Shown here: positions 1,148-15,285 of the stretch, piece after piece | How the letters are laid out: every line of letters begins with the position of its first letter | Numbering within the stretch: the first letter of the stretch is position 1 | Virus record (IMG/VR): IMGVR_UViG_3300030451_005863 | Coordinates: 1 to 39,058 of that record | Source of the DNA: a virus | Taxonomy: Duplodnaviria; Caudoviricetes | Direction: 5' to 3' (one strand) | DNA: 39,058 bases | Translations under genes and position numbers: made by a program | The notes under the pieces: generated by a model | The model's input: the letters and a program-made list of their open reading frames with translations, nothing else | What the model was told of the DNA's origin: nothing | Database searches by the model: none

Positions 1148-2632
1148 CTAATAATATTTGTATTCTTTTGGACTTGGATAATCATACATATCCTCTTTCC
1201 AATCTGATAATAACTCAATAAAGTTCCCTTGTCTGTACCTTAGCATGGCTTGAGACATGCTATCTACGTAATCATCATGCGCTCCATGAGGAAATGATGC
1301 GCATTCTTCAATAACTTCTTGAGCCCAATGCTCCTGTTCAGGATACCAAACAGCTCCTGATTCAAACAACGGTGCAACAGAATTTACTCTTACAAATTTA
1401 TCTTTACCTTTTGTAGGCACAAAATCTACAACGGGTATACCCATACGTCTAAACTCTTGGGCTAATGGTTGTCCTGTTGCCTTAGCTTCAATGACCACGG
1501 TCTCAGGTTCCCAGTACTTGTATTGCTCTAATGCTATGGCTTTAAGTTCTGGAAAATCATATTTGCCTTTCATTGCATCTAATAAAATTACATTTGGTTC
1601 TTGTCCTTCTTTTGGAAAAAAAATACCCCATGTAGTAATCGCACTATAGTCTGCAGTTTCTTTTTTTGAAAAAGCTGTATCATAGGATTGGATTATTCCT
1701 TGTAAATTTGGAACATCCTTTTCTTTCCATGGCCTCCACCATTCTCTTTTGATAATAGCACCCTCTTCAGAAGTGGGCTCTTGCATATATTGAGCTGACC
1801 AGTTTCTTACAGGCAATGATGCTTTTACTTTTAACAATTCTTCTAGTTCCCAATACTCAGGCCATACAGGTTCTTCGTTTGGCATGATTGCGGGAAAAGA
1901 AATTTGTTTCCACTTATCTGCTTTAGGTTCTTTTTGAGCCTTAATTAATCTTCCAGTAAGATCATCTTCTGCCCAACGTGTCATAACCACGACTATTGTT
2001 CCACCAGGTTGTAAACGCTGTCTGGGTCCTGATACATACCAATCGAAAGATTTTTCCATAGCCGTATCTGACAAAGCATCTTGTTCAGTATGTGGATCAT
2101 CGATAATAAGTAAGTCCGCCCCTCGTCCTGTGATAGAACCGCCAACCCCCGCTGCATAATATTCTCCCCCATGATTAGTCTCCCAACGTCCTTTAGCCTT
2201 ACTATCTTCTCTTAGTTTAACATCTCCAAATATTTGTTTATAGTCTGCTGAGTCCATAAGATTACGAACCTTTGAACCGAACCTTGCTGATAATTCTGAG
2301 TTGTGGGATACCTGCATAATTTTTAATTTTGGAAACTTCCCTATCATCCAAGCAGGAAATAAATACGATGCAAATTCTGATTTAGTATGTCTAGGAGGCA
2401 TATTAATTATGAGCCTTCCTTTTCGTTCTTTAGAAATTTTTGTAAACTCAGCAGCTATTATCTGATGGTGCCCCCATTTCTTTGGGTCCTTATCCAATCT
2501 ACATACGAAGTCAGGCCAAACATTTTTTACAAAATATATAAAATTATCTTGGCACAATTTTATGTGCTCAATCCATCTTTTCTCTACAGCTACTCTTAGC
2601 TGTTCAGTTGTTAATAATTCTTTTTGCACCAT
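1148..2632 (-). CDS. terL: Terminase large subunit
   Basis: ATPase motifs INMPPRHTKS (Walker A), AAGVGGSITGRGADLLIIDD (Walker B) and VMTRW; nuclease motifs SYDTA and HDDYVDS. Confidence 0.95.
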   Translation of the reverse strand: MVQKELLTTEQLRVAVEKRWIEHIKLCQDNFIYFVKNVWPDFVCRLDKDPKKWGHHQIIAAEFTKISKERKGRLIINMPPRHTKSEFASYLFPAWMIGKFPKLKIMQVSHNSELSARFGSKVRNLMDSADYKQIFGDVKLREDSKAKGRWETNHGGEYYAAGVGGSITGRGADLLIIDDPHTEQDALSDTAMEKSFDWYVSGPRQRLQPGGTIVVVMTRWAEDDLTGRLIKAQKEPKADKWKQISFPAIMPNEEPVWPEYWELEELLKVKASLPVRNWSAQYMQEPTSEEGAIIKREWWRPWKEKDVPNLQGIIQSYDTAFSKKETADYSAITTWGIFFPKEGQEPNVILLDAMKGKYDFPELKAIALEQYKYWEPETVVIEAKATGQPLAQEFRRMGIPVVDFVPTKGKDKFVRVNSVAPLFESGAVWYPEQEHWAQEVIEECASFPHGAHDDYVDSMSQAMLRYRQGNFIELLSDWKEDMYDYPSPKEYKYY

Positions 2633-3072
2633 CTATATTTACTCTCACTATGAACTTTTTCTTGCCACTCCCTACCTGGTCTAGTTGTCCAACCTTTACC
2701 TTTTGCAAAAGGTCGAGTGACAGCTTCTTTTTCAAAGCCACAAGCGTTCAAACTAATACCTGACTCATTTTGTAGGGTATAAGTAATAATTTTTTTACCA
2801 CCCATAAGCTGCCATATGTTCCAAGCTTTTGCATACAAAAAACTATTAACATTTTTTGTTCCATCAGAACAGGTTCTTAGTACCTCTGCAGTATACCTAT
2901 TATCTAACTTTCTAGCTACAGGTCTACCAAGCACTAGGATTCCTACTAATTTATCATTCTTCAAAGCTCCTATACAAAATTTACAACCTCTTACCTTCTT
3001 ACTATGACGATGTAACTTAATTATGAAGTTGTTGGCCTCAGCCATTGAAATAGGGATACATTTCATTTTCAT
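2611..3072 (-). CDS. XF1762-family / Mom-like GNAT-fold protein, putative adenine modification enzyme
   Basis: Pattern PIS..EAN.FI..LHRH, LVG....GRPVAR.LD...AEV.R.C.DGT.N..SFLY, and IITYTL..ESG.SL.A.GF. Confidence 0.75.
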   Translation of the reverse strand: MKMKCIPISMAEANNFIIKLHRHSKKVRGCKFCIGALKNDKLVGILVLGRPVARKLDNRYTAEVLRTCSDGTKNVNSFLYAKAWNIWQLMGGKKIITYTLQNESGISLNACGFEKEAVTRPFAKGKGWTTRPGREWQEKVHSESKYRWCKKNY

Positions 3073-4512: not shown

Positions 4513-5016
4513 TCAACAAATCCTAAATCCATTACTTTCCTCGCAGAACTCAATAAACTCATTTACATTCTCTAATGTAAAAGGGTATTCTGAAGCATAG
4601 TCGTACTTCGCTTGAATCCAACTCCATGTATCGTGATCGTCCTTTGGATAGTCACGTGGTGCGAGATTTTTTTCACCTGTTTCAGCTTCGACTTTCTTTC
4701 GTAACATTTCATGAAGTTTATTTACATGGCGATTATTTTCTTCGGCTTTCTTCATGTCCTCTTCACATTCTTTGATACCTTTCGCAACTGTTCCGTTGCT
4801 AATTAACGCTTTTAATTGATTTGCAATTTGCTTTGCTTGTTCTTGGCTTACCTCATGCCCACCATTAGACTGCCACAAAGGTTTATTTTTTTCTTCTATA
4901 ACCCCTGTATGTTCGCAGACAAATTCGGCGAGACGACGCCACCACCAAACGTTGTTTCTGAAATACTCACCTTTTTCTGTTTTATGATTTCCTAGACTAT
5001 ATAAATCAAAGCCCAT
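4513..5016 (-). CDS. Conserved-looking phage hypothetical protein, 167 aa (MGFDLY...YFRNNVWWWRRL)
   Basis: Start reassigned to ATG 5014-5016, which follows an AAGGAG RBS and its own promoter. The longer 5319 start reads through non-coding repeats. Confidence 0.85.
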   Translation of the reverse strand: MGFDLYSLGNHKTEKGEYFRNNVWWWRRLAEFVCEHTGVIEEKNKPLWQSNGGHEVSQEQAKQIANQLKALISNGTVAKGIKECEEDMKKAEENNRHVNKLHEMLRKKVEAETGEKNLAPRDYPKDDHDTWSWIQAKYDYASEYPFTLENVNEFIEFCEESNGFRIC

Positions 5017-5041
5017 GATTTTCTCCTTTTGTTTATGTTTA

Positions 5042-5076
5042 TCCCATGAATGTAAGACTTTATTTGGTAAAGTCAA
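5042..5076 (-). promoter_or_regulatory. Sigma70-like promoter with operator copy 2
   Basis: TTGACT-16 nt-TACATT; operator TCCCAT-gaat-GTAAGA at 5042-5057 overlaps the -10 region. Confidence 0.7.
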
Positions 5077-5234
5077 GCACAAAATTTTCACGATCCACGA
5101 AACCTTCAGGAAGAAAAACTGGGGCTCTGGCTCTGGGAGCTGGTCTCTACACATTTGAGTGTCATCAAACGAGGAACTACCAACGAGACCACGCCTCTTC
5201 CAGCAGGATCTGGTGCTGGTACTGGCCAGGTCTC

Positions 5235-5345
5235 TTACCATAAGCTTAGAGCTGCTAGGACCGAGAACGCAATAAACGAGGGAGCGCGACATGCGATGGC
5301 TGCCGAAACGGCAGCCCATCCAATGATCATAATCCCGACTAACAT
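5235..5345 (-). CDS. Putative 36 aa membrane micro-protein
   Basis: MLVGIMIIGWAAVSAAIACRAPSFIAFSVLAALSLW starts 1 nt after the stop of 5347-5703. It overlaps a hairpin and an AACGAG unit, so it is uncertain. Confidence 0.45.
   Translation of the reverse strand: MLVGIMIIGWAAVSAAIACRAPSFIAFSVLAALSLW
5298..5316. terminator. GC-rich hairpin downstream of the 5347-5703 gene
   Basis: GGCTGCCG-aaa-CGGCAGCC, 8 bp stem. Confidence 0.5.
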
Positions 5346-5346
5346 T

Positions 5347-5703
5347 TTACTTTCCCCATGTTATTCCCTCTACATCTGTCTTGAACTTAACGTGTTGACG
5401 CAACTGTAGCTTCGTAAGTATTTTAGGTACGTTGTCTAACAAACCTTCACCTTTGAGTCTGCTGCCCTTGGTAATCCTCACCCACATCTTCTCGGCATAA
5501 CCACGGTGCTTGAACCATACGTACACGTAATCCTGCATCGAAGGCCTCCTTTCCAGCGCTTTTATCTTGAAGTATGTTTCTTTGCCGTGGTGAGGGCACG
5601 AGAAAACAACATTGTCTTCTTCTATCTGTTTGGCTTCTTCTTCCATTTGTTTGGCTTCTTCAGAGTCTAACGGATCTCTCCAAATAAATTTATCTTTGGT
5701 CAT
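5347..5703 (-). CDS. DUF2314 (YegJ)-like domain protein
   Basis: C-terminal EKMWVRI....GEGLLDNVP...L.L...VKF; N-terminal EEAKQ duplication. Confidence 0.6.
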   Translation of the reverse strand: MTKDKFIWRDPLDSEEAKQMEEEAKQIEEDNVVFSCPHHGKETYFKIKALERRPSMQDYVYVWFKHRGYAEKMWVRITKGSRLKGEGLLDNVPKILTKLQLRQHVKFKTDVEGITWGK

Positions 5704-5780
5704 AGTATTACCCCCACGAGCTTCAGGATAACAATGATGCTAACGCAAAAGGTTAGCTCTACTAGTATACTTTTAGACAT
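5700..5780 (-). CDS. 26 aa single-pass membrane micro-protein
   Basis: MSKSILVELTFCVSIIVILKLVGVIL; AGGAG RBS; ATGA overlap with the next gene. Confidence 0.7.
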   Translation of the reverse strand: MSKSILVELTFCVSIIVILKLVGVIL

Positions 5781-5801
5781 TTCTTTCTCCTATGTTATGT
5801 G

Positions 5802-5837
5802 TCCCATGTACATAAGACTTCTATCTCCTGCTGTCAA
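5802..5837 (-). promoter_or_regulatory. Sigma70-like promoter with operator copy 3
   Basis: TTGACA-17 nt-TATGTA; operator TCCCAT-gtac-ATAAGA at 5802-5817. Confidence 0.7.
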
Positions 5838-6148
5838 GAACTTTTTTGAAATCTTTTCCAGCAGAGGTTCCTGACGCTGGTGCTGGGCCCATGGTCATTA
5901 CCTCTTTGTTCAGCGAATGGCGATGAACGAGAACGAGGACTGCGATACCATCACCTGCTTCCCAGCTCCTGGCTGCACCAGCCAGTACCCTATTTACCTG
6001 AGTGTTGTCAAACGAGAGTTCGCCAACGAGAACGTAGCTTTTCGTACCACGGTAATCCTTCGCGCTGCCAGCTCCCAGATCCTGGGCCCAGAGTCTGATG
6101 GTCTTTAGTGGCGTCAAACGAGGAAACGAGAAGCGAGGAACGAGGACT

Positions 6149-6532
6149 TCAGGAGGCAGCACCAGCTGCCTTCGCCAGCAGCCTCCAGATCCCTTGAGTT
6201 GTGGTGTCCGAGGACGTAGAAACGAGGTCAACGCAACGAGAATCACGGTTCACGGCCAGAATTTCTAAGGCTCTCTGCTTGAGGGGGGAGTTCAGAATAA
6301 ATACTTTACCACCTGCCCTTTGATATTTGATATGCCAATTAATTTGCCACTTTGAAAGACCTCTATTCTTGAGGTCATTTGCTTTAAGTTCAAGCCAAAA
6401 AACACTTTGATTCAATACACAATGAACATCTGGAATACCGTTAGTAGTATTGCTTTCAACCCTTGTAAAATGTGCATTTTTGTTTATCTTCTTGATACGA
6501 TTCCAAAGCTTTGTTTCACCTGATTGAGCCAT
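6149..6532 (-). CDS. PD-(D/E)XK nuclease, VRR-NUC / Holliday junction resolvase-like
   Basis: E..LW..IK, RVES...GIPDV, WLELK, LSKWQINWH and GGKVFIL motifs. Confidence 0.8.
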   Translation of the reverse strand: MAQSGETKLWNRIKKINKNAHFTRVESNTTNGIPDVHCVLNQSVFWLELKANDLKNRGLSKWQINWHIKYQRAGGKVFILNSPLKQRALEILAVNRDSRCVDLVSTSSDTTTQGIWRLLAKAAGAAS

Positions 6533-6544
6533 AATTAAAACATG

Positions 6545-6757
6545 TCAATAATTACAAATACAGCCATAAAAATCACCAGAACCATCTTTCATTACATGTG
6601 CATTGATTGGATAGTCATGATATTCTGTAAGATGAATTCTAAGTATATCGCATAAGTCATAACAGCTTACATCAGCTAAAATTTCCATACCTTGAGTCAT
6701 TTCCTTAGTTACTTCGACTAAATGATATAGACCATCAGATAATAATATAAGATCCAT
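6545..6757 (-). CDS. Hypothetical protein (Cys/His-containing)
   Basis: 70 aa ORF with TAATG coupling to the upstream gene. Confidence 0.7.
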   Translation of the reverse strand: MDLILLSDGLYHLVEVTKEMTQGMEILADVSCYDLCDILRIHLTEYHDYPINAHVMKDGSGDFYGCICNY

Positions 6758-7107
6758 TAAAATTTAATAATTTTAGTAATAACTGAATTTGGTATTATAG
6801 TCGTACCGCCAATAGTTTCTATAAAACCCTCATCACCTTCTTTACCGTCTTTGAGACCATAATCGCTAAAGATTCTAGTAATACCTTTAGATCTTGAGAC
6901 CAACCAACCTCTCGAAACCATTCTACCAAGACCTGACTTCATCAATTGATCAAAAGTTTGCCAACCTGTCTCCCCAACAATATCGAGCCAGTGTATTTCT
7001 ACAAAAGGATATCTTTCAATTTTTTCTTTATGGATTTTCAAATTTAAATCTAAAGTTTTTTTACGATTTAATTTTTTACTTTTCATTTTTGTTATTCGTT
7101 TCAACAT
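6757..7107 (-). CDS. Conserved-looking phage hypothetical protein (start may be 7086)
   Basis: VEIHWLDI..ETGW...SRGWL...GGTTIIP..VI..I pattern, typical of a small phage protein family. Confidence 0.75.
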   Translation of the reverse strand: MLKRITKMKSKKLNRKKTLDLNLKIHKEKIERYPFVEIHWLDIVGETGWQTFDQLMKSGLGRMVSRGWLVSRSKGITRIFSDYGLKDGKEGDEGFIETIGGTTIIPNSVITKIIKF

Positions 7108-7178
7108 TTACACTTCCTACATTTGTAACCAAAGTACTATTATGCACCTCATTAAAAACAGATAACCATTGAGACCAA

Positions 7179-7694
7179 CTATGTGTTTTCGATAGATTTT
7201 TCTGGCGTAACGTCAATGATATTCTTGGCTTCACCAATTTTTTCTTCGAGCTCATCTAACCTCTTTTCTAATTGTTCTCTTGATAATCCTTCCAAACCTA
7301 AATGTGTTACCTCTTTTCGATCAACAAAAAAACCAGCCATTTTGCCTTTTGCAACTTCAGCATTAATAGCCGCCGTAAACTGACCTTTATTTTCTGCGCC
7401 ATTACGTAATCTATCGTAGGTTTTATATGATCTTAATTTATCTTTTTCATAAATTGCTAATTCTTGAGCCATTCTTTTTTCTAAGTATCTACAAACATGA
7501 GGATTTATATCTGGGTTAGTTAATCTTGACGCTGTCTCAGTAGGGCCATATTTGTTTTTACTCGTGTATCCAGCCTCTTTTGCTGCATCTACTTTTGAGA
7601 TCTTGCCATAATTCTCAACGTAAATATCAATAAATCTTTTTTGTTTTGGGGTTAGATCCAATACAGTTCTTAAGGATTTTGATTTTTGTGGCAT
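7179..7694 (-). CDS. terS: Terminase small subunit
   Basis: LTPKQKRFID.Y...AAKEAGY...ASRL.NP HTH N-terminus typical of Terminase_2; C-terminal IIDVTPE. Confidence 0.85.
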   Translation of the reverse strand: MPQKSKSLRTVLDLTPKQKRFIDIYVENYGKISKVDAAKEAGYTSKNKYGPTETASRLTNPDINPHVCRYLEKRMAQELAIYEKDKLRSYKTYDRLRNGAENKGQFTAAINAEVAKGKMAGFFVDRKEVTHLGLEGLSREQLEKRLDELEEKIGEAKNIIDVTPEKSIENT

Positions 7695-7701
7695 GCTATA
7701 T

Positions 7702-7948
7702 CCTATACCTCTTTCCTAGAAAAATAAATACAGGTCAATAAAATTCTATTTTTTTTCCATTAGGAAATGGTATTTTCCTAGAAATCTAGGAATTTTCCTA
7801 GTTTTTTTTTGAGAACTAGGAAAGCTTTTCTGTAATAAATACAATAGTTTAAGTAATATTTTCCTAGTTTCCTAGTAAAAAAGCTGTATTTGAAAAAAAA
7901 AATAAATTTTTTTTTCTAAGCAGTGGGTATAGGGTGTAGAACTAGGAA
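7702..7948. repeat. TTCCTAG/CTAGGAA iteron-like array in an AT-rich tract (candidate origin or pac region)
   Basis: TTCCTAG at 7713, 7775, 7795, 7861, 7869; CTAGGAA at 7786, 7816, 7942; bracketed by inverted CCTATACC (7702) / GGTATAGG (7926). Confidence 0.75.
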
Positions 7949-7950
7949 AA

Positions 7951-7967
7951 CTTAGAATAATTCTAAA
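7951..7967. promoter_or_regulatory. Irr/ICE-like palindrome
   Basis: CTTAGAA-TAA-TTCTAAA, one mismatch from the ICE consensus TTTAGAA-N3-TTCTAAA. Confidence 0.5.
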
Positions 7968-8039
7968 CTATAGATACCCACAGCGTTCGGTATCTTTTTT
8001 CTTGTTGATTTTGACATAAATCACGTATATCTTTAATTA

Positions 8040-8111
8040 GTTTTTTCATTTTTAGCACCTTTCAAACATAGGAGAACACATGACTTGGATCAGGGGGAAA
8101 CCCCTTGATCC
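8040..8111 (+). ncRNA. Candidate small RNA 1 (may also encode an 18 aa peptide, 8080-8136)
   Basis: Upstream TTGATT-17-TATCTT (8005-8033) and TTGACA (8011); ends in hairpin GGATCAGGGGG-aaa-CCCCTTGATCC (8087-8111). Confidence 0.4.
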
Positions 8112-8227
8112 CTGGCCCGTGACCCGTGATCCTTGACTATACATTCAACAACCAAGATACACGGCTCACTGATTCTGTTTGTTAATTTAATACCCTTGAC
8201 ACAACTAACTAAAAAAATATATACACT

Positions 8228-8290
8228 GCCTGTATATACAACTCCAATGTTTATGTGGGGGGCTGGTGAAGGGAGACTAGAGCCAGCCCT
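8228..8290 (+). ncRNA. Candidate small RNA 2
   Basis: Upstream TTGACA (8196) with TATATA/TATACA -10 candidates; no ORF; ends in a GGGCTGG...CCAGCCC hairpin that abuts the convergent stop at 8290. Confidence 0.4.
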
Positions 8291-8730
8291 TAAATAATAA
8301 CCGATACTAATATTGATGAAAATAGAGAAGTAGAGGCATGATAAACTGCTGATCTTAAATGCTCTAAATGTTTTCTATGATATTTTTTTGAACTAGGCTC
8401 TTTACACTTTCGATACTTCTGATATTGCACATAATACCTTCTCCAAGCAACTTGTTTTTCTGTAAATTTTATATCTTTTTTCTTAATAGCTTGCACATAT
8501 TTTGATTTTACATGTTCAGGGGAAAATCCTGCCCAATAACAAATACTTTGAAAATCATCACCTTCGTTCATAATCCAATTATGAGCTTCTAATTTAAATA
8601 TACTAGACTTACGATCGTTTTGATTATTACAAGAATCTTCTAATGCATTGCATAGTACACCCCGCCAAAGTTTTTCTTCTCCAGGAACATCGTTTGTTGA
8701 AAGTAATGTTGCAGCGAAACTAGTGCCCAT
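8290..8730 (-). CDS. Conserved-looking phage hypothetical protein
   Basis: EEKLWRGVL.NALED...AHNWI...DFQSICYWAG pattern; start at 8730 chosen to minimise overlap. Confidence 0.75.
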   Translation of the reverse strand: MGTSFAATLLSTNDVPGEEKLWRGVLCNALEDSCNNQNDRKSSIFKLEAHNWIMNEGDDFQSICYWAGFSPEHVKSKYVQAIKKKDIKFTEKQVAWRRYYVQYQKYRKCKEPSSKKYHRKHLEHLRSAVYHASTSLFSSILVSVII

Positions 8731-8944
8731 AAGTTTTAATAAGGTAGGTGAGTAAGTCACGATAATAAATTACCCTGTCAGGGTCACTCCTTTTTTTTGC
8801 AAGATAAAAGTTGTAATCATCATGAACATTTTCTATTAAATTATAAATATCCTGTCCAGACCAACCTTCAACTTTTGGAATATCAAGAAAATCTTTAAAT
8901 AAAGCCATATCGAGAGTATAATTATTATTAGCCACTTTTACCAC
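8720..8944 (-). CDS. Hypothetical protein (alternative start 8908)
   Basis: ORF tiled between neighbours; TATACT lies 6 nt before ATG 8908. Confidence 0.7.
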   Translation of the reverse strand: MVKVANNNYTLDMALFKDFLDIPKVEGWSGQDIYNLIENVHDDYNFYLAKKRSDPDRVIYYRDLLTYLIKTYGH

Positions 8945-9191
8945 CCTGTACGACCTTTAATTTAAACAACTTTGCTTTTGAAATAACTCTTTTTGACTTA
9001 AGATTTTTGTATATTTCTTTAATATCCTGCATAAAATTTGGATCAAATGTGTCTGCATAATCAAACTTTTGACCCATATATAAACGGAACATCACTCCTG
9101 TCACGAGTGAATATTCCTTCATATTTAATTTTTTAGCTAATAGATGTAGCGATTTGTGGAGATCGCTAATGTCTGGTGTATTTTTTGCCAC
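8928..9191 (-). CDS. Hypothetical protein
   Basis: 87 aa ORF with AAGGA RBS; C-terminal LKVVQGGK. Confidence 0.7.
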   Translation of the reverse strand: MAKNTPDISDLHKSLHLLAKKLNMKEYSLVTGVMFRLYMGQKFDYADTFDPNFMQDIKEIYKNLKSKRVISKAKLFKLKVVQGGKSG

Positions 9192-9426
9192 GAATCAATT
9201 CCTTTAATTTAGTTAATAAGTCTACCACAATACTGGCGCTTGATCCGTGTTTCTTGTTTGATTCCTTAAAGTATCCGTTACCTTCACACAATTTGCACAA
9301 CTTCAGGGGGTGTGGAACTTGTAATTCCTCTACACTTGCTAAATAACCATTTCCCTTACATTTAAAACAAATCTCGAAAGATTCTACTTTATCAAAAACA
9401 TTATCTGAATTGTAAGTCATAATCAA
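9166..9426 (-). CDS. DnaJ-type zinc-finger protein
   Basis: Two CxxCxGxG repeats: CFKCKGNG and CKLCEGNG. Confidence 0.8.
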   Translation of the reverse strand: MIMTYNSDNVFDKVESFEICFKCKGNGYLASVEELQVPHPLKLCKLCEGNGYFKESNKKHGSSASIVVDLLTKLKELIRGKKYTRH

Positions 9427-9434
9427 ACCTTTTT

Positions 9435-9845
9435 TTAATCCATTTCAGCATTGAGAACTGCTTGCTCTAATGTATCTAAAATTTTACGATGCTCTTTAAT
9501 AGCCTCAATAATATCGACTGCGTTTTTCTTTTTGATAATTCTATCAAAAGAAACTCTTAAAGTGTCAGCGCACTTATTTGCAATAGATTTATTTAAAGTT
9601 TGATATAGCTCTGTTCTATCCTCAATGCTCGATTCATCCATACTAAAATCTAAACCAAAAGAATCTAATGTTGAAGATAATTCATTTAAAGATTCCTTAC
9701 CAAAACCAGGCATACGTAGGAATTCTTCTTTTGACCTAATAACTATATCCCTCAACTTCCAAATTTCCATTTCAGCTAATATTTTTGATGTTCTACGACT
9801 TAAAGTTGATAAATTAGATATTTGTTTATCTAAAACATTACTCAT
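9435..9845 (-). CDS. RNA polymerase alpha subunit C-terminal-domain (alpha-CTD)-like protein
   Basis: LDKQISNLSTLSRRTSKIL..MEI..LRDIV.RSKEEFLRMPGFGKESLNEL...L.SFGL matches the alpha-CTD pattern L.LSVR..N.L....I....DLV...E.ELL..PNFG.KSL.EI...L...GL. GGAG RBS before ATG 9845. Confidence 0.8.
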   Translation of the reverse strand: MSNVLDKQISNLSTLSRRTSKILAEMEIWKLRDIVIRSKEEFLRMPGFGKESLNELSSTLDSFGLDFSMDESSIEDRTELYQTLNKSIANKCADTLRVSFDRIIKKKNAVDIIEAIKEHRKILDTLEQAVLNAEMD

Positions 9846-10059
9846 CTCTACTCCTTCCTGGCTTACCATTTGTTTTCAAAAGTTTATTTATGTATTTATC
9901 TGTGGGTTGTTTTGTTTTTTTAGCCCGTATATCAACATATTCATGTATCATTTTAGAAATCATACTTGCAGGTGATCTGAATTTTGCATTACATAGTGCT
10001 TTAAGAATATCATAATCTGGTTTTCTAACTGCAACTGATTTAAATTTGTTTATGTCCAT
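9838..10059 (-). CDS. Ribbon-helix-helix-like DNA-binding protein
   Basis: KSVAV beta-strand followed by helices YDILKALC and SPASMISKMIHEYV; AAGGAG RBS. Confidence 0.65.
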   Translation of the reverse strand: MDINKFKSVAVRKPDYDILKALCNAKFRSPASMISKMIHEYVDIRAKKTKQPTDKYINKLLKTNGKPGRSRDE

Positions 10060-10195
10060 TTTTTACTCCTTTGTTTAGTTTATTTGGGGTCATACCAAAC
10101 ATGAAAAATCCATCCTTATCTTGGTATAGTTTTTTAAACCCTAACTTTCTTAATTTAGTTGGCACTTTTACATTTTTATTTTTACTTGTAGCCAT
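10040..10195 (-). CDS. Small basic hypothetical protein, 51 aa
   Basis: MATSKNKNVKVPTKLRKLGFKKLYQDKDGFFMFGMTPNK... fills the gap in the operon; GAGGAG RBS. Confidence 0.6.
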   Translation of the reverse strand: MATSKNKNVKVPTKLRKLGFKKLYQDKDGFFMFGMTPNKLNKGVKNGHKQI

Positions 10196-10364
10196 GTTTC
10201 TTGCACTCCTCTTTGCATTGTTGTCGTGTTTTAATTTGAGGGTTTGACATTACATTGTGTACTCTCTCAAAATACGGATTAGTATCACCAAATGACCAGC
10301 CCTTGTACCTGCTTAATCTATCAATAGCAGCAAGCATACTATCTCTCCATTCTTTCTTTACCAT
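10182..10364 (-). CDS. Hypothetical protein
   Basis: 60 aa ORF tiled within the operon. Confidence 0.65.
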   Translation of the reverse strand: MVKKEWRDSMLAAIDRLSRYKGWSFGDTNPYFERVHNVMSNPQIKTRQQCKEECKKHGYK

Positions 10365-10468
10365 AATATTGGACCTAAGATTATTGCTAAGATAACCAAT
10401 AATGTTTTTGGAAAAGAAATCAAAAGAATAAGGATCAATAAAAAAAATTCTAGATTGTCGAACTTCAT
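10358..10468 (-). CDS. 36 aa membrane micro-protein
   Basis: MKFDNLEFFLLILILLISFPKTLLVILAIILGPILW; AGGAG RBS; ATGA overlap with the upstream gene. Confidence 0.7.
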   Translation of the reverse strand: MKFDNLEFFLLILILLISFPKTLLVILAIILGPILW

Positions 10469-10722
10469 TTTTTCTCCTGTTTACATTTTATCTCATCGTT
10501 AACTAACAGACTAACTATTTCTTGATTGAAAGGTTTATACAAATTACCAAAATCGTCACTCAAAAAAATATTCTTGACGTTTTGTTCATGTTTTATTTTT
10601 TCATTAGAAGTCATCATCGATTTACCATAGTAATCTTGTGAATCAATGTTGCTTAGTTGCCTGTCTAGTTTTTTGACAAGTTGCACAAATTGTTGTGACT
10701 GACTGTTTATGTGTATTTTCAT
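10465..10722 (-). CDS. Hypothetical protein, first gene of the regulatory operon
   Basis: Start moved to ATG 10722 because the 10749 start lies inside the promoter. Confidence 0.7.
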   Translation of the reverse strand: MKIHINSQSQQFVQLVKKLDRQLSNIDSQDYYGKSMMTSNEKIKHEQNVKNIFLSDDFGNLYKPFNQEIVSLLVNDEIKCKQEKK

Positions 10723-10724
10723 AG

Positions 10725-10782
10725 TCCCATTTACATAGGAGATCATCAAGAGAATGTCAAGAATTTAATTTTGTGCTATAAT
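10725..10782. promoter_or_regulatory. Divergent promoter pair with operator copy 4
   Basis: Minus: TTGACA (10755-10760)-17-TATGTA with operator TCCCAT-ttac-ATAGGA (10725-10740). Plus: extended -10 TGcTATAAT (TATAAT at 10777-10782). Confidence 0.7.
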
Positions 10783-10788
10783 AAATTT

Positions 10789-11010
10789 ATGAATTATATT
10801 ATGATTGGAATTCTTTGTATTTCTTCTTTTACTGAACCAGATTGTATTTTTTTCAATGAAGATCCAATAAAAAATTACACATCTTTTGAAAGCTGCCAAA
10901 AGGAAGCTGTCAAAAAAGTCAATGAAATGGGGCCAAATTTAAAAAATAACGGCATTCCTGTAACATCTATAAAAATCTACTGCATGCTTGACAAAAGTCA
11001 AAATACTTGA
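10789..11010 (+). CDS. Small Cys-containing hypothetical protein, 73 aa
   Basis: MNYIMIGILCISS..PDC...FESCQKEA...YC; start follows the -10 hexamer by 6 nt. Confidence 0.7.
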   Translation: MNYIMIGILCISSFTEPDCIFFNEDPIKNYTSFESCQKEAVKKVNEMGPNLKNNGIPVTSIKIYCMLDKSQNT

Positions 11011-11041
11011 TTTTTCACTTAAAAGTTGATAAGATAATCAC

Positions 11042-11266
11042 ATGAGGCAATATCTATGCCAGATCAGAGTAGCTGGACTTTATATTCATTGTGTCGTAAT
11101 GGCTGCTAGTGAAGAGATGGTGCTAGATAAAATTGCTGAAAGTTTAAACCAGGGTTCTTATAAGGTTGAAGAAGAAGGTTTCTACGATCCTAAAAGAATC
11201 TATGTAACTTTTGAGGAGACTTCAAATGGCGTTACAGAAACTGGTGTCGGAAAAACTGCAACTTGA
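11042..11266 (+). CDS. Hypothetical protein
   Basis: 74 aa ORF preceded by TTGATT-17-TAAGAT (11007-11035). Confidence 0.7.
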   Translation: MRQYLCQIRVAGLYIHCVVMAASEEMVLDKIAESLNQGSYKVEEEGFYDPKRIYVTFEETSNGVTETGVGKTAT

Positions 11267-11411
11267 AAGTCAATGGGCTAACAAGGCGCTAACTCAAGGA
11301 AGAGTAACTAGTGATATGCGGTGGATTGACATTAGAATAAAAGAGCTCAAAAAAAAGATCAATGATCAAAGTGTTGTTGATGCTGTTGATGAGTTAAAAA
11401 AAACTGGCTAA
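11226..11411 (+). CDS. Small coiled-coil hypothetical protein
   Basis: GAGGAG RBS before ATG 11226 (MALQKLVSEK...). Confidence 0.7.
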   Translation: MALQKLVSEKLQLESQWANKALTQGRVTSDMRWIDIRIKELKKKINDQSVVDAVDELKKTG

Positions 11412-11415
11412 ATAG

Positions 11416-11610
11416 TCAGTTAAATTGTTTTTTTCTTAAAATCGTTGATTCGGTAAAGGGACTTATGCCCTGAATTTTAAGCATACAGTCTGCACAATAA
11501 TATCTGTTGTAATCAACTACTACTGCTGTTTTGTTACAATTCCTCTCTTCACATTTTCTGTAAAAAGATGAGTTACTTTCTCTGTGTATTTTTTTATTTT
11601 TCCTTCCCAT
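11416..11610 (-). CDS. Small zinc-finger protein
   Basis: CEERNC...AVVV...YYCADC; overlaps the ParB-like gene by 91 nt. Confidence 0.5.
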   Translation of the reverse strand: MGRKNKKIHRESNSSFYRKCEERNCNKTAVVVDYNRYYCADCMLKIQGISPFTESTILRKKQFN

Positions 11611-11975
11611 AATTTTTCCATCAGTTTACTCATGTCAGGATGTAATTCCCAACAAAGAACATTCAATCTTGAAAAAAAATGAATTTCAGCTTTGTCTCTA
11701 GCTTTATAAAAAAAACTAGCATCACCATGCTTTTTTAGGATTTTGAATCTATGGTTTCCGTTCCTTAATCTTAACTCGTCATCAACAACCATCGGACACA
11801 AAAGACCATTTGATTCTATGTCAGACCGAACTGTTTGTTTAAAATCTGGATGTACACCGTGGACAATTTTTATGTCTTCAAATTTTAATAACTCTAATCT
11901 ATCTTTAAATATTCTATACAGAGGCCAGATAACAGTTCCAGATCCTGCAATTATATTTTTATGTAGCTTCTCCAA
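11520..11975 (-). CDS. ParB/Sulfiredoxin-like N-terminal domain protein
   Basis: DIESNGLLCPMVVD...RLRNGNHRF matches the ParB motif SI...GL..PI.V......DG.HR. Confidence 0.7.
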   Translation of the reverse strand: MEKLHKNIIAGSGTVIWPLYRIFKDRLELLKFEDIKIVHGVHPDFKQTVRSDIESNGLLCPMVVDDELRLRNGNHRFKILKKHGDASFFYKARDKAEIHFFSRLNVLCWELHPDMSKLMEKLWEGKIKKYTEKVTHLFTENVKRGIVTKQQ

Positions 11976-13824
11976 AATCTTCTCCTAATGCCATGTCAAC
12001 TTTACTTGGGACTTTAAATTCCATACATGTCTCCATTGTTTTTTTAATCTTATCTATATCAGATTTATCATGAATATCAAAACATAATTCATCATGTATT
12101 TGAAGCTTTGGTAGAAAACCAGCTTCTCTACAACTTACAATGGCTTGTTTTGTTTGATCTGCGGCTGACCCTTGGATAAGTCTGTTAAGTGCTTTGTAGG
12201 TAAACGCTCGTTTTATGTTATTTCTACCATATTTTGCAACAGCATTTTCAAAAGTTTCAGGTGAGTGTATACCAAAATCTTTTGTCTCCCACATATTAAA
12301 TCTACACTTTCTGCCTTTTTTTGTACGTATGACACCTTCATCACTTGCTTTTTTCATACATCTATCAGATAATAATTTTACAAATGGTACTTTACGATTA
12401 TATTTTGTTATTAAGTTTTCTGCTTCTTCCTTTGATAGTCCTAGGGATATCGCTAGTTTATTTTTACCCATCCCATACATTAGACCTAATCCTATTGTCT
12501 TCGCTTGTGATCTTTCTATGCCTGCTAGATCTGCTACTGTTTGATGGAAGTCTGTTTCTGAATTAGAATAAGCTGTAACTAATTCGTTTGATCCTTCATA
12601 ACCTTCCCCGATACTTGCTGCATAGTGAACGACCATTCTTGGTTCTTGTTGGGAGTAATCGAATGAACCCCATTTACAGTTTTCTTCGGGTAAGAATAAA
12701 CCTCGGATTCTTCTTGCATAATCTTTGTTACGTGCTGGTAACTGTTGAAGATTAGGATTAGCCATAGAGAGACGGCCAGAAACGGTCCCACCACTATCGC
12801 TACGTAATTGATTAATTTCACCATGAATACGACCGTTATACTCGTACTTAAGTATGCTTTGCAAGAAGGTACCATGAAATTTATTTATTTCTCTAGCTTG
12901 CATAATTAATTTACAAATTTTATGTTTTGAATTTGAAAGCCAATTGGTTGTGAAACTTGGTTCGCCTGTTGCGGTTCTTGGAAAATCTATTTTCAATCTC
13001 TCGAATACATGACCAATGGCCCGTGCTTTCCAAACGTCTACGTCTGACCCCGCGATTTTCTTAATATCCATCAAAACACCCTTTTCCTCGTCCATAAACG
13101 TGTTTTTAAGGGCATTTGCCTTATCTACGTCCACTCGTATACCTTTTTCCCTCATTTCAATTAAAATGGGCAATAAGGACGATTCTAGACTCCAAACGGT
13201 TTCAAGTGACTGGCTTTTAATTTCATGTTTAAATCTCTGCCATAATAGATACGTGAGCCGTGCATCTTGTTCCGCGTAAAAACCGACATGTTCGGCAGGC
13301 AACTTCCACATTTCAGCTTTTGGGTCTATACCATGGTCTTTTGCTGCTTCATTTAAATCTTGTTCACTTTTTAATTCTCCTAAATAATCTTTGGCTAAGG
13401 CATTTAAACTATATGACCACCTTGTTTCATCTACTATACCCGCAGCAATCATGGTATCAACAATAGGGCCATTTATTTTTATACCCATTCTCCGTAACCA
13501 ACCGACATCATATTGAGCATTATGAAATATTTTTGTAGCAGGTAAGGCACATACATCCTTTATATAATTTTTTACTTGTTCAGGTATCATGTTACCCCCA
13601 CCAAAATGATTGAATGGATAATACCCTTGCCAACCTTCAACGGCTACTGCAAAACCAATTACATAACCATTACCTGTAGCCCAACCAGCTCCTAATTTTT
13701 CATTGATACCATCATCTCTTGTTTCTAAGTCAATTGCTATTTCATTGAAACCCGAAAGATCTTTATACTCAGATGGACAAGACCAAATATGTTTTTTAAA
13801 ATTAAATGTAAATTGTAAACTCAT
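11959..13824 (-). CDS. polA: Family A DNA polymerase with 3'-5' exonuclease domain
   Basis: Exo motifs IDLET, FHNAQYD, YAEQD; Pol motifs SGRLSMANPNLQQ, DYSQQEPR (A), RSQAKTIGLGLMYGMG (B), QIHDEL (C). Confidence 0.97.
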   Translation of the reverse strand: MSLQFTFNFKKHIWSCPSEYKDLSGFNEIAIDLETRDDGINEKLGAGWATGNGYVIGFAVAVEGWQGYYPFNHFGGGNMIPEQVKNYIKDVCALPATKIFHNAQYDVGWLRRMGIKINGPIVDTMIAAGIVDETRWSYSLNALAKDYLGELKSEQDLNEAAKDHGIDPKAEMWKLPAEHVGFYAEQDARLTYLLWQRFKHEIKSQSLETVWSLESSLLPILIEMREKGIRVDVDKANALKNTFMDEEKGVLMDIKKIAGSDVDVWKARAIGHVFERLKIDFPRTATGEPSFTTNWLSNSKHKICKLIMQAREINKFHGTFLQSILKYEYNGRIHGEINQLRSDSGGTVSGRLSMANPNLQQLPARNKDYARRIRGLFLPEENCKWGSFDYSQQEPRMVVHYAASIGEGYEGSNELVTAYSNSETDFHQTVADLAGIERSQAKTIGLGLMYGMGKNKLAISLGLSKEEAENLITKYNRKVPFVKLLSDRCMKKASDEGVIRTKKGRKCRFNMWETKDFGIHSPETFENAVAKYGRNNIKRAFTYKALNRLIQGSAADQTKQAIVSCREAGFLPKLQIHDELCFDIHDKSDIDKIKKTMETCMEFKVPSKVDMALGEDFGEAT

Positions 13825-14018
13825 TCTACAAATTTCTTTTTTACTAACTTATTGATTTGATGTTTATTACTAAATGCATAAAGACAACCTTTATAATCAT
13901 GTGCAAATATTTCGAAAAAAGGGCCTTCAGGACCATTACAACCTTTTCTAGTAGGATAAATTTCTAAAATAAATTTATGTCTAGCTACCGTTATGTTTTT
14001 TCTTTTTAGGTAGGCCAT
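13821..14018 (-). CDS. Hypothetical protein
   Basis: 65 aa ORF with ATGA overlap to polA. Confidence 0.65.
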   Translation of the reverse strand: MAYLKRKNITVARHKFILEIYPTRKGCNGPEGPFFEIFAHDYKGCLYAFSNKHQINKLVKKKFVE

Positions 14019-14253
14019 TTAAGTCTTTAAGTTTTAATTTTTCTAATTCACAATAATGAATTATTTTATCTAAGTCTTCCACTCCATTTTTATTCAAGTA
14101 ACGACACACATACTTAATAACGTTCCCTTGAAAAAAAGATAAATTATTTTTTGAAATAAATTCATAAGGTTGAATATGAAAATCTTTGTAATGATTTCCA
14201 CCTATTTGACGTTGTTGTGGAAAGGAATCTTTAAATATATCTTCGTTTGTCAT
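13981..14253 (-). CDS. DUF3310 / SaV-like protein
   Basis: QIGGNHY...IQPYEFI...QGNVIKYVCRY..KNG.EDL.K..HY. Confidence 0.85.
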   Translation of the reverse strand: MTNEDIFKDSFPQQRQIGGNHYKDFHIQPYEFISKNNLSFFQGNVIKYVCRYLNKNGVEDLDKIIHYCELEKLKLKDLNGLPKKKKHNGS

Positions 14254-14456
14254 ATTTTAAATTCTTGTAATACTTTTAACTTTTCCTCTGCGTTTGCAAT
14301 TTTTTCAATAAGTTTGTCTACCTCATCAATATGCTGTGGATGCTCACCTATACCAACAGGTTTCTCCATATATATTTTAAGAGTTGCTTCAGCTTCAGAA
14401 ATTTGTGCATTATATCTGTCTTCTAATGCGTGTATAATTACTTGTTTAAACTCCAC
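14250..14456 (-). CDS. Conserved-looking marine phage hypothetical protein (start uncertain, GTG assumed)
   Basis: ALEDRYNAQI.EA.A...IY...PVGIGEHPQ..DEVDKLI. Confidence 0.7.
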   Translation of the reverse strand: MEFKQVIIHALEDRYNAQISEAEATLKIYMEKPVGIGEHPQHIDEVDKLIEKIANAEEKLKVLQEFKI

Positions 14457-15285
14457 ACATACCTTCACATTCATTATTGAATAAATCTTGTTGATCGTCT
14501 TCTTTAAATTGAACCTCATCCAAAGGTTTACACTGTCTATGAACAAAATTGTTTACTGGTGTTTTATGCATTCTCATTTGTTTATCAAATTCTACAGCTT
14601 TTTCAAACTCTTTCGGTCTATTGTTTTTCATATCTAGCCAAAAAGCATCATCATGAAAAGGACAACCAATACAAGCTGACTTTGCGGGAGTTTTGTAGCC
14701 TCTACCTTCATACCACTTTAAACAATCTTTTCGTGACATATTTTTTTCTATAAGAGGCCAAGTATTTTTCTGCCACCAAAACCTAGATGGTTTCATTCTC
14801 ATAATTTCATCAGTTGAAATACCAACCCAAACCTCTACCCAATCATCTTTTTTCATTCTCTGTCTAGGTTTATAACCCAAAACTTCTCTTATCTTTTTTG
14901 CAATTGGTGATATTTTGTATTCTCTTGTGCATTGTCTCCTACCCATACCTTTTTTACCTTTTTCATTTAAAGTATAAAATGGTGCAGAAGCGAATTGGTT
15001 GCCTCCAGGAGACAAAGCTTTTAGTATATCTTTATCTAAATCTCCCTTTTTACAAATATGTATTGGTATTGAAATTGTTTTCTTTAACCATTCTAAATGT
15101 TCAAGGACTGGAGCAGGTTCCCAACCTGTATCAGCGAATACCATAAAATCAGGCCTTTCTTCAAATAAACCTTCATGAGCCATTAAAGCCATTGTGCTTG
15201 ATTGCACACCAGCACCTAATGAAAGTACTCTTGCAAGTGGCTTATCTTTCCTCTTTATCAATTTACCCTCTATTTTTGTAATCAT
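14446..15285 (-). CDS. PAPS-reductase-like / PP-loop adenine nucleotide alpha-hydrolase with Cys motifs
   Basis: SLGAGVQS PP-loop, FADTGWE, RQCTREYKI.PI, GISTDE..R, WPLIE, KSACIGCPFH and terminal ECEGMC. Confidence 0.85.
   Translation of the reverse strand: MITKIEGKLIKRKDKPLARVLSLGAGVQSSTMALMAHEGLFEERPDFMVFADTGWEPAPVLEHLEWLKKTISIPIHICKKGDLDKDILKALSPGGNQFASAPFYTLNEKGKKGMGRRQCTREYKISPIAKKIREVLGYKPRQRMKKDDWVEVWVGISTDEIMRMKPSRFWWQKNTWPLIEKNMSRKDCLKWYEGRGYKTPAKSACIGCPFHDDAFWLDMKNNRPKEFEKAVEFDKQMRMHKTPVNNFVHRQCKPLDEVQFKEDDQQDLFNNECEGMCGV

What the first reader, a model, noticed from the sequence alone, without database searches (positions are those of the whole stretch)
9435..9845. Phage-encoded free RNA polymerase alpha-CTD mimic with a helical C-terminal extension
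Seen: residues 1-70 fit the alpha-CTD fold pattern and keep the Arg of the SVR-like motif and the G.G..S helix-hairpin. About 65 helical residues follow, and there is no alpha N-terminal assembly domain. The gene is coupled to the RHH gene. Known: alpha-CTD contacts UP elements, activators and NusA. Inference: a decoy that titrates host activators or NusA, or a factor binding the A-tract UP-like sequences upstream of phage promoters.
Basis: partly seen in the sequence, partly recalled or inferred. Interest (0 to 1): 0.7.

Follow-up and report, generated by a model that had tools for sequence, protein, structure and literature searches.

The report
Marine phage's borrowed RNA-polymerase grip
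Some viruses related to those of the abundant ocean bacterium SAR11 carry an optional gene for a detached copy of the DNA-gripping tail of bacterial RNA polymerase joined to a two-helix stalk, which likely competes with the host polymerase for AT-rich promoter DNA midway through infection; its function is untested.

Summary
Observation confirmed. ORF 9435-9845 (-, 136 aa) of an HTVC023P-type pelagiphage-like contig encodes a true RNA polymerase alpha-CTD (Pfam above cut-off; fold rmsd about 1.5 Å to Caulobacter alpha-CTD) plus a two-helix hairpin, with no assembly domain. It belongs to a family (136 unique sequences) that I found described nowhere. All 108 proteins found through the hairpin alone also carry alpha-CTD. 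The family is under purifying selection and keeps the DNA/NusA-binding face (R265 108 of 108); the activator-contact face has drifted. This allele is among the most worn (N268K, N294G, K298E). The gene is optional: intact in 4 of 62 spanned related slots, and skipped cleanly in near-identical phages. The matching operon in HTVC027P is a middle operon. Not supported: functional coupling to the RHH gene, or UP-like phage promoters. Best reading (0.4): a competitor for AT-rich upstream DNA that damps alpha-CTD-dependent transcription, like T4 ModA or G1 gp67 but by mimicry. Main rival: NusA/activator decoy (0.25). Free alpha-CTDs are auto-annotated in other phages, and this scan noted them in other phage groups; I found no functional study.

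The parts
9639..9845 (-). alpha-CTD domain, residues 1-69 (R18 = R265 equivalent; helix-hairpin G47-S52)
   Evidence: Pfam PF03118 31.9 bits; PDB sequence and fold matches
9435..9638 (-). Two-helix hairpin extension, residues 70-136, with invariant His119 and near-invariant I88, K121, E127; includes the stop codon
   Evidence: AF2 models; conservation H119 75 of 75; found only with alpha-CTD among 108 proteins
9851..9859 (-). Shine-Dalgarno-like purine run upstream of ATG 9845, inside the end of the 73-aa gene
   Evidence: sequence; function inferred
9838..10059 (-). Upstream conserved 73-aa gene, likely ribbon-helix-helix; overlaps the alpha-CTD start by 8 nt; homolog of HTVC023P gp13
9166..9426 (-). 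Downstream CxxCxGxG zinc-finger-like gene, the conserved right border of the variable slot
9437..9861 (.). Segment skipped (418 or 421 nt) in gene-less variants of the same phage
   Evidence: contig joints 9436/9858 and 9443/9862; L004 alignment
10732..10760 (-). Candidate operon promoter TTGACA-17-TATGTA, without a UP-consensus match upstream
   Evidence: consensus match only

Best explanation
The gene encodes a free copy of the RNA polymerase alpha-CTD fused to a helical hairpin, which likely binds the minor groove of AT-rich upstream promoter DNA and would displace the host polymerase's own alpha-CTDs. Shown: domain identity, family, purifying selection, conserved DNA face, optional presence. 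Inferred: origin from an alphaproteobacterial (probably SAR11) rpoA; middle-phase expression, from the matching operon in HTVC027P; oligomerisation or partner binding through the hairpin, which would supply the avidity a lone alpha-CTD lacks; and the outcome, lower alpha-CTD-dependent host (for example rRNA) or phage early transcription while phage DNA is replicated. It would be a host- or condition-dependent fitness aid, not part of the core programme. The window's allele may bind more weakly or differently than most family members.
For: In 108 proteins found by hairpin words alone (16 clusters at 75%), R265, P293, G296 and S299 are kept in 16 of 16 clusters, N294 and K298 in 12 of 16, and position 259 is acidic in 15 of 16. 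Other exposed positions drift: Y277 0 of 16, C269 1 of 16, E286 6 of 16. The Caulobacter alpha-CTD-DNA structure names R266, N269, N295 and K299 as the DNA contacts (PMC13004042, passages). dN/dS in 10 pairs is 0.28-0.40 for the domain (one pair 0) and 0.02-0.43 for the hairpin. HTVC027P gp21-gp24, homologs by inspection of the genes flanking family members L084/L085/L088, are all classed Middle (PMC12753301 Table S3 rows); HTVC027P has no RNAP of its own. Unrelated phages attack the same contact: T4 ModA/Alt modify R265 (PMC2988021) and G1 gp67 blocks alpha-CTD/UP binding at rRNA promoters (PMC3694059). The phage's candidate operon promoter has no UP match, so it could escape. Other viral alpha-CTDs are fused to RHH- or HTH-like modules.
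Against: This allele has N268K, N294G and K298E and no net charge in residues 1-69. N268 is kept in only 5 of 16 clusters. The conserved face is also the binding site of DriD and, by the title of Schweimer 2011 seen in a reference list, of NusA, so conservation cannot separate DNA from protein ligands; P293, F295 and G296 are also structural. UP elements at SAR11 rRNA promoters are not shown: scores of 9-10 of 15 in 4 of 5 genomes against a background of 11-24%. Cultured HTVC023P and HTVC027P have no match to the gene. No expression data for the gene itself.
Confidence: 0.4

Rival explanations
1. Protein decoy: the domain soaks up host proteins that dock on the R265 face, chiefly NusA acidic repeats (changing pausing and termination) or DNA-mimicking activators, or acts as bait for an enzyme that attacks alpha-CTD.
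For: SAR11 NusA (526-aa frame) has C-terminal repeats matching E. coli AR1 (E 3.7e-6) and AR2 (E 0.013). NusA-AR2 and NusA-NTD bind alpha-CTD (PMC7171158, passages). DriD binds the DNA face. R265 is invariant while N268 and K298 vary, and this allele tolerates K298E.
Against: The CRP-type 287 face has drifted. No WYL match in 5 of 5 incomplete SAR11 genomes. The W490/F491 pair that E. coli AR2 uses reads Y/T in SAR11 by my inspection. An acidic ligand would also disfavour K298E.
Confidence: 0.25
2. Architectural AT-rich DNA binder or adaptor: it coats or bridges phage or host DNA during replication, with no specific effect on promoters.
For: The DNA face is kept, the middle-phase context coincides with replication, the hairpin is more conserved than the domain in 8 of 10 pairs, and alpha-CTDs are reused in many unrelated architectures.
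Against: The acidic 259/261 patch, which contacts sigma region 4 (recalled), is kept in 15 and 13 of 16 clusters; a plain DNA binder would not need it.
Confidence: 0.15
3. Activator module: a third alpha-CTD that sits upstream of -35, touches sigma region 4, and is tethered by its hairpin to a phage factor to boost phage middle or late promoters.
For: Both the DNA face and the 259/261 patch are conserved. One unrelated viral protein fuses alpha-CTD to an RHH-like domain (L102).
Against: The gene is absent from most relatives and from near-identical phages whose upstream control region is unchanged. There is no fixed partner gene.
Confidence: 0.12
4. This particular copy is decaying: the family is functional, but the window's lineage has lost DNA contacts and is being deleted.
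For: Three of four DNA contacts are changed, this clade has the longest branch in the domain tree, L001 carries a 327-nt deletion between short repeats, and gene-less variants exist.
Against: A co-occurring allele differs at 25 sites, 16 at third codon positions and 10 of 10 in the hairpin. The frame is intact in P0002-P0004.
Confidence: 0.08

Closest known systems
C-terminal domain of bacterial RNA polymerase alpha subunit (Pfam PF03118; Caulobacter 9ZUM, E. coli 3N4M, B. subtilis 1Z3E)
   Same: Fold (rmsd about 1.5 Å over 67-70 residues), R265, helix-hairpin G296/S299; family domains are 35-74% identical to their best SAR11 RpoA match
   Different: No assembly domain or linker, host C-terminal WPP arm replaced by a 67-residue hairpin, phage-encoded and optional; this allele has N268K, N294G, K298E
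Auto-annotated phage alpha-CTD proteins (Bacillus phage Goe8 c00050, Roseobacter phage CRP-701 gene 9, Erythrobacter phage vB_EliS-L02 ORF40, Rhodococcus phage Finch, UniProt 'uncultured Caudovirales' entries)
   Same: Phage gene with a detached alpha-CTD
   Different: Other lengths and extensions; the phage-collection hits cover only the domain. No functional test found
T4 ModA/Alt and Staphylococcus phage G1 gp67
   Same: Works like: phage interference with the alpha-CTD/UP-element contact
   Different: They modify R265 or bind sigma; no homology is claimed. This protein would act by mimicry, and its activity is untested

Membership tests
RNAP alpha-CTD domain (PF03118) | Profile score above the curated cut-off | tested here: met
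   31.9 bits vs 23.8; 35.6 bits
RNAP alpha-CTD domain (PF03118) | Four-helix fold with helix-hairpin-helix | tested here: met
   AF2 models; Foldseek rmsd 1.5-1.6; VIA Z 12.9, rmsd 1.5, 67 aligned
RNAP alpha-CTD domain (PF03118) | R265, G296, S299 (E. coli numbering, recalled) | tested here: met
   R18, G49, S52; 108, 107 and 107 of 108 family proteins
RNAP alpha-CTD domain (PF03118) | Other DNA contacts N268, N294, K298 | tested here: not met
   Window allele K21, G47, E51; family keeps them in 43, 98 and 92 of 108
RNAP alpha-CTD domain (PF03118) | Binds AT-rich DNA, NusA or activators | not testable with these tools
   needs biochemistry
Full RpoA subunit | N-terminal dimerisation/assembly domain joined by a linker | tested here: not met
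   136-144 aa ORF with only PF03118; family lengths 131-171 aa
Generic HhH DNA-binding domain | Best sequence and fold matches are non-RNAP HhH proteins | tested here: not met
   No HHH Pfam hit at E<=0.01; all 45 Foldseek PDB rows shown are RNAP alpha
GntR FCD-like domain (for the hairpin) | Significant profile match over the helical bundle | tested here: inconclusive
   Only a short EH-motif match at E 1.6; no FCD hit in 11 members
Ribbon-helix-helix (upstream gene) | RHH profile or feature match | tested here: inconclusive
   RHH_5 in 12 of 19 homologs, best E 0.0032, none for the window protein; Atlas RHH clusters 0.92 at ranks 24 and 27; not folded
HTVC023P-type pelagiphage (the contig) | PolA and gene order close to HTVC023P | tested here: met
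   PolA 72% identical; gp13 homolog in the same region; host not directly shown

The most novel reading that the evidence does not exclude
Pelagiphages captured the host's own polymerase tail and turned it into a multivalent anti-UP-element repressor: a fourth phage route to the alpha-CTD contact (after ADP-ribosylation, sigma-bound blocking and alpha cleavage), by pure mimicry, that throttles SAR11 rRNA synthesis in mid-infection and is gained and lost within wild phage populations.
Probability: 0.2. Interest if true: 0.75.

Novelty: new variant of a known kind. Interest (0 to 1): 0.5.

Why it matters
[quoted passage not shown] Detached alpha-CTDs recur in many phages with no functional study that I could find. 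This small, well-bounded family, with natural present and absent variants and natural alleles that differ at the DNA contacts, makes the question 'what does a free phage alpha-CTD do' directly testable in Caulobacter or in vitro. If it represses UP-dependent promoters, it would be a mimicry-based takeover mechanism against the ocean's commonest bacteria.

Tried and rejected
Homodimer prediction: no verdict (0.20, mark 0.42); not used as evidence either way. Hairpin identity: no usable Atlas hit, no consistent Pfam hit in 11 members, PDB profile hits only at E 1.6, VIA rows for residues 70-136 are unrelated helical hairpins at Z under 10. Stand-alone hairpins under 127 aa were not searched in the protein database. 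PHROGs: no hit. Ongoing gene conversion from host rpoA: exact 30-35-nt matches in 5 of 14 genes are not above codon-resampling controls (15-49 of 200 reach them); rejected. Donor assignment by identity (SAR11 47, other 45, tie 42 of 134) and by tree (72 columns, unresolved) failed. Promoter scan 5000-14500: 40 sites vs 36.7 +/- 5.3 in shuffles. SAR11 rRNA UP elements inconclusive. Two metatranscriptome runs gave no contig over the gene, which says nothing on expression. The metagenome scan read 3 of 64 parts and returned mostly host rpoA. Literature searches found no functional study of a phage alpha-CTD; one search was uninformative; subscription papers and bioRxiv supplements were not visible, and the supplements of PMC9599517 were not read, so an annotation of this gene there cannot be excluded.

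Full report
Setting. The window is an IMG/VR virus record, linear, 65% complete, 34% G+C. It has PolA, UvrD-like and SNF2 helicases, primase and terminase. PolA is 72% identical to Pelagibacter phage HTVC023P, so a SAR11 host is likely but not shown. No RNA polymerase gene appeared among the 30 proteins scanned, which were not all the ORFs.

Observation. ORF 9435-9845 (-) encodes 136 aa. Residues 3-61 pass the Pfam RNA_pol_A_CTD cut-off. PDB sequence hits are RNAP alpha for 32 of 34. AlphaFold2 gives an alpha-CTD followed by two long helices. Foldseek and VIA place the domain on solved alpha-CTDs at about 1.5 Å.

Family. A single-sequence search found 4 proteins. Alignment searches widened this to 136 unique sequences with the hairpin, all with alpha-CTD; that pool was partly selected by the domain. 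The cleaner sample is, seeded on hairpin words only: 108 proteins of 131-171 aa, all 108 with PF03118 (lengths 127-2000 searched; only 7995 candidates scored). The hairpin has an invariant His (75 of 75), K121 70, I88 70 and E127 66 of 75. Its identity is unknown. dN/dS in 10 pairs is below 0.45 for both parts; several pairs have dS above 1 and are rough. A second allele in run X1 differs at 25 sites, 10 of 10 at third positions in the hairpin.

Which face is kept. In the 108 proteins (16 clusters), R265, P293, G296 and S299 are kept in 16 of 16 clusters, R291, E288, N301 and E302 in 14, N294, K298 and E261 in 12, N268 in 5, E286 in 6, M289 and C269 in 1, Y277 in 0 (E. coli numbering and determinant names recalled). 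The Caulobacter structure paper names R266, N269, N295 and K299 as DNA contacts and shows the activator DriD using the same face (PMC13004042, passages). NusA is said to use the UP-element site (title in a reference list). So the family keeps the DNA/NusA face, and sequence cannot say which ligand. The window allele keeps R265 but has N268K, N294G and K298E, with an added arginine at 264.

Origin. The HhH segment is of alphaproteobacterial type. Two residues lean to SAR11: M267 (18 of 18 SAR11, 2 of 30 other hosts, 74 of 134 family) and S311 (18 of 18, 0 of 30, 48 of 134). Best-identity counts and the tree do not resolve the donor; the family falls on one side of a branch, SH-aLRT 91, on 72 columns. 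The SAR11 set was fetched with a chimeric query and the other hosts are unnamed.

Optional gene. Of 73 viral loci anchored on the upstream gene (L003 replaced by L001, the same contig), 11 end before the downstream anchor and were dropped. Of 62 spanned, 4 have the intact gene, 1 a stub and 57 none; many are near-duplicates. L004, with neighbours 97-100% identical, lacks the gene cleanly. L001 has a 327-nt deletion between short direct repeats. Contigs that skip the whole gene occur in 4 of 4 runs: with 255-nt sides in X5 and X7 (two studies) and only 27-30-nt sides in X1 and X2, where gene-bearing contigs also occur. X1 may be the source sample. The 4 runs show no joint. HTVC023P has the upstream gene but no alpha-CTD match.

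Context. In the window's clade the gene directly follows the RHH-like gene (4 of 4 loci). Among 12 more distant loci an RHH-like gene lies 0.4-1.4 kb upstream in 7, downstream in 2, and was not found in 3 short loci. In HTVC027P the RHH-like gp21 and gp22-gp24, which by inspection match the genes around L084, L085 and L088, are classed Middle, while gp36 is Early (PMC12753301 Table S3, six rows seen). Middle timing for this gene is therefore inferred, not measured. The operon's candidate promoter shows no UP match, and the upstream 790 nt are 99.5% identical in gene-less L004.

Mechanism. I favour competition for AT-rich upstream DNA (0.4). It fits the conserved DNA face plus the acidic 259/261 patch, middle timing, dispensability and the precedent that T4 ModA/Alt and G1 gp67 target this contact (passages). 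ModA deletion is reported not to affect the drop in early transcription, so such factors can be dispensable. Against it: the worn allele here, and no proof that SAR11 promoters use UP elements. A protein decoy (0.25) remains open because SAR11 NusA has acidic repeats. Ribosome-deprived infected SAR11 cells are reported (PMC11066056, passages), but they arise with HTVC027P, which has no match to this gene, so the gene cannot be their general cause.

Novelty. Detached alpha-CTDs are common in viral contigs: 56 loci, most with other extensions, and database annotations exist. Six literature searches found no functional study. Earlier notes of this scan report free alpha-CTDs in other phage groups (unchecked); none matched this family by sequence. 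Verdict: real, a new variant of a recurring but unstudied kind; interest 0.5.

Noticed in passing
L092:3967-4356, L095:6586-6969, L096:4610-4993, L101:2894-3292: A second alpha-CTD family in pelagiphage-like contigs (127-132 aa) with an N-terminal extension and a more host-like domain, without the His hairpin; suggests an independent capture.
   Followed up: partly
L102:6266-6676, L112:5252-5746, L131:7959-8390: Viral alpha-CTDs fused to FitA-like RHH, HTH_23 or sigma region-4-like modules, all weak Pfam hits.
   Followed up: partly
L080:1645-2880: A 411-aa phage protein with an internal alpha-CTD-like domain, directly upstream of a portal-like gene (portal label by eye).
   Followed up: no
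P0041, P0042: Proteins with the phage N-terminal half and a host RpoA-like tail; probably assembly chimeras at a shared 31-32-nt stretch.
   Followed up: partly
window 9807-9815: Residues 11 and 13 differ among near-identical alleles (N/S in the window, D/D in P0002, Y/E in the L001 stub): a variable spot on the acidic 259/261 patch.
   Followed up: partly
window 14446-15285 and 2611-3072: PAPS-reductase-family gene and Mom-like gene, possible DNA modification functions.
   Followed up: no
window 7775-7824: Nested inverted repeats with T runs in the intergenic region between the small terminase and the 156-aa gene.
   Followed up: no
L305-L308, about 215-222 nt upstream of 16S: Conserved SAR11 rRNA promoter candidate TTGATT-16-TATAAG in 4 of 5 genomes, with upstream T tracts not clearly above background.
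   Followed up: partly
P0121, P0122, P0161, P0031: Proteins with tandem alpha-CTD repeats (up to 11) or TPR plus alpha-CTD dominate the deep search.
   Followed up: no
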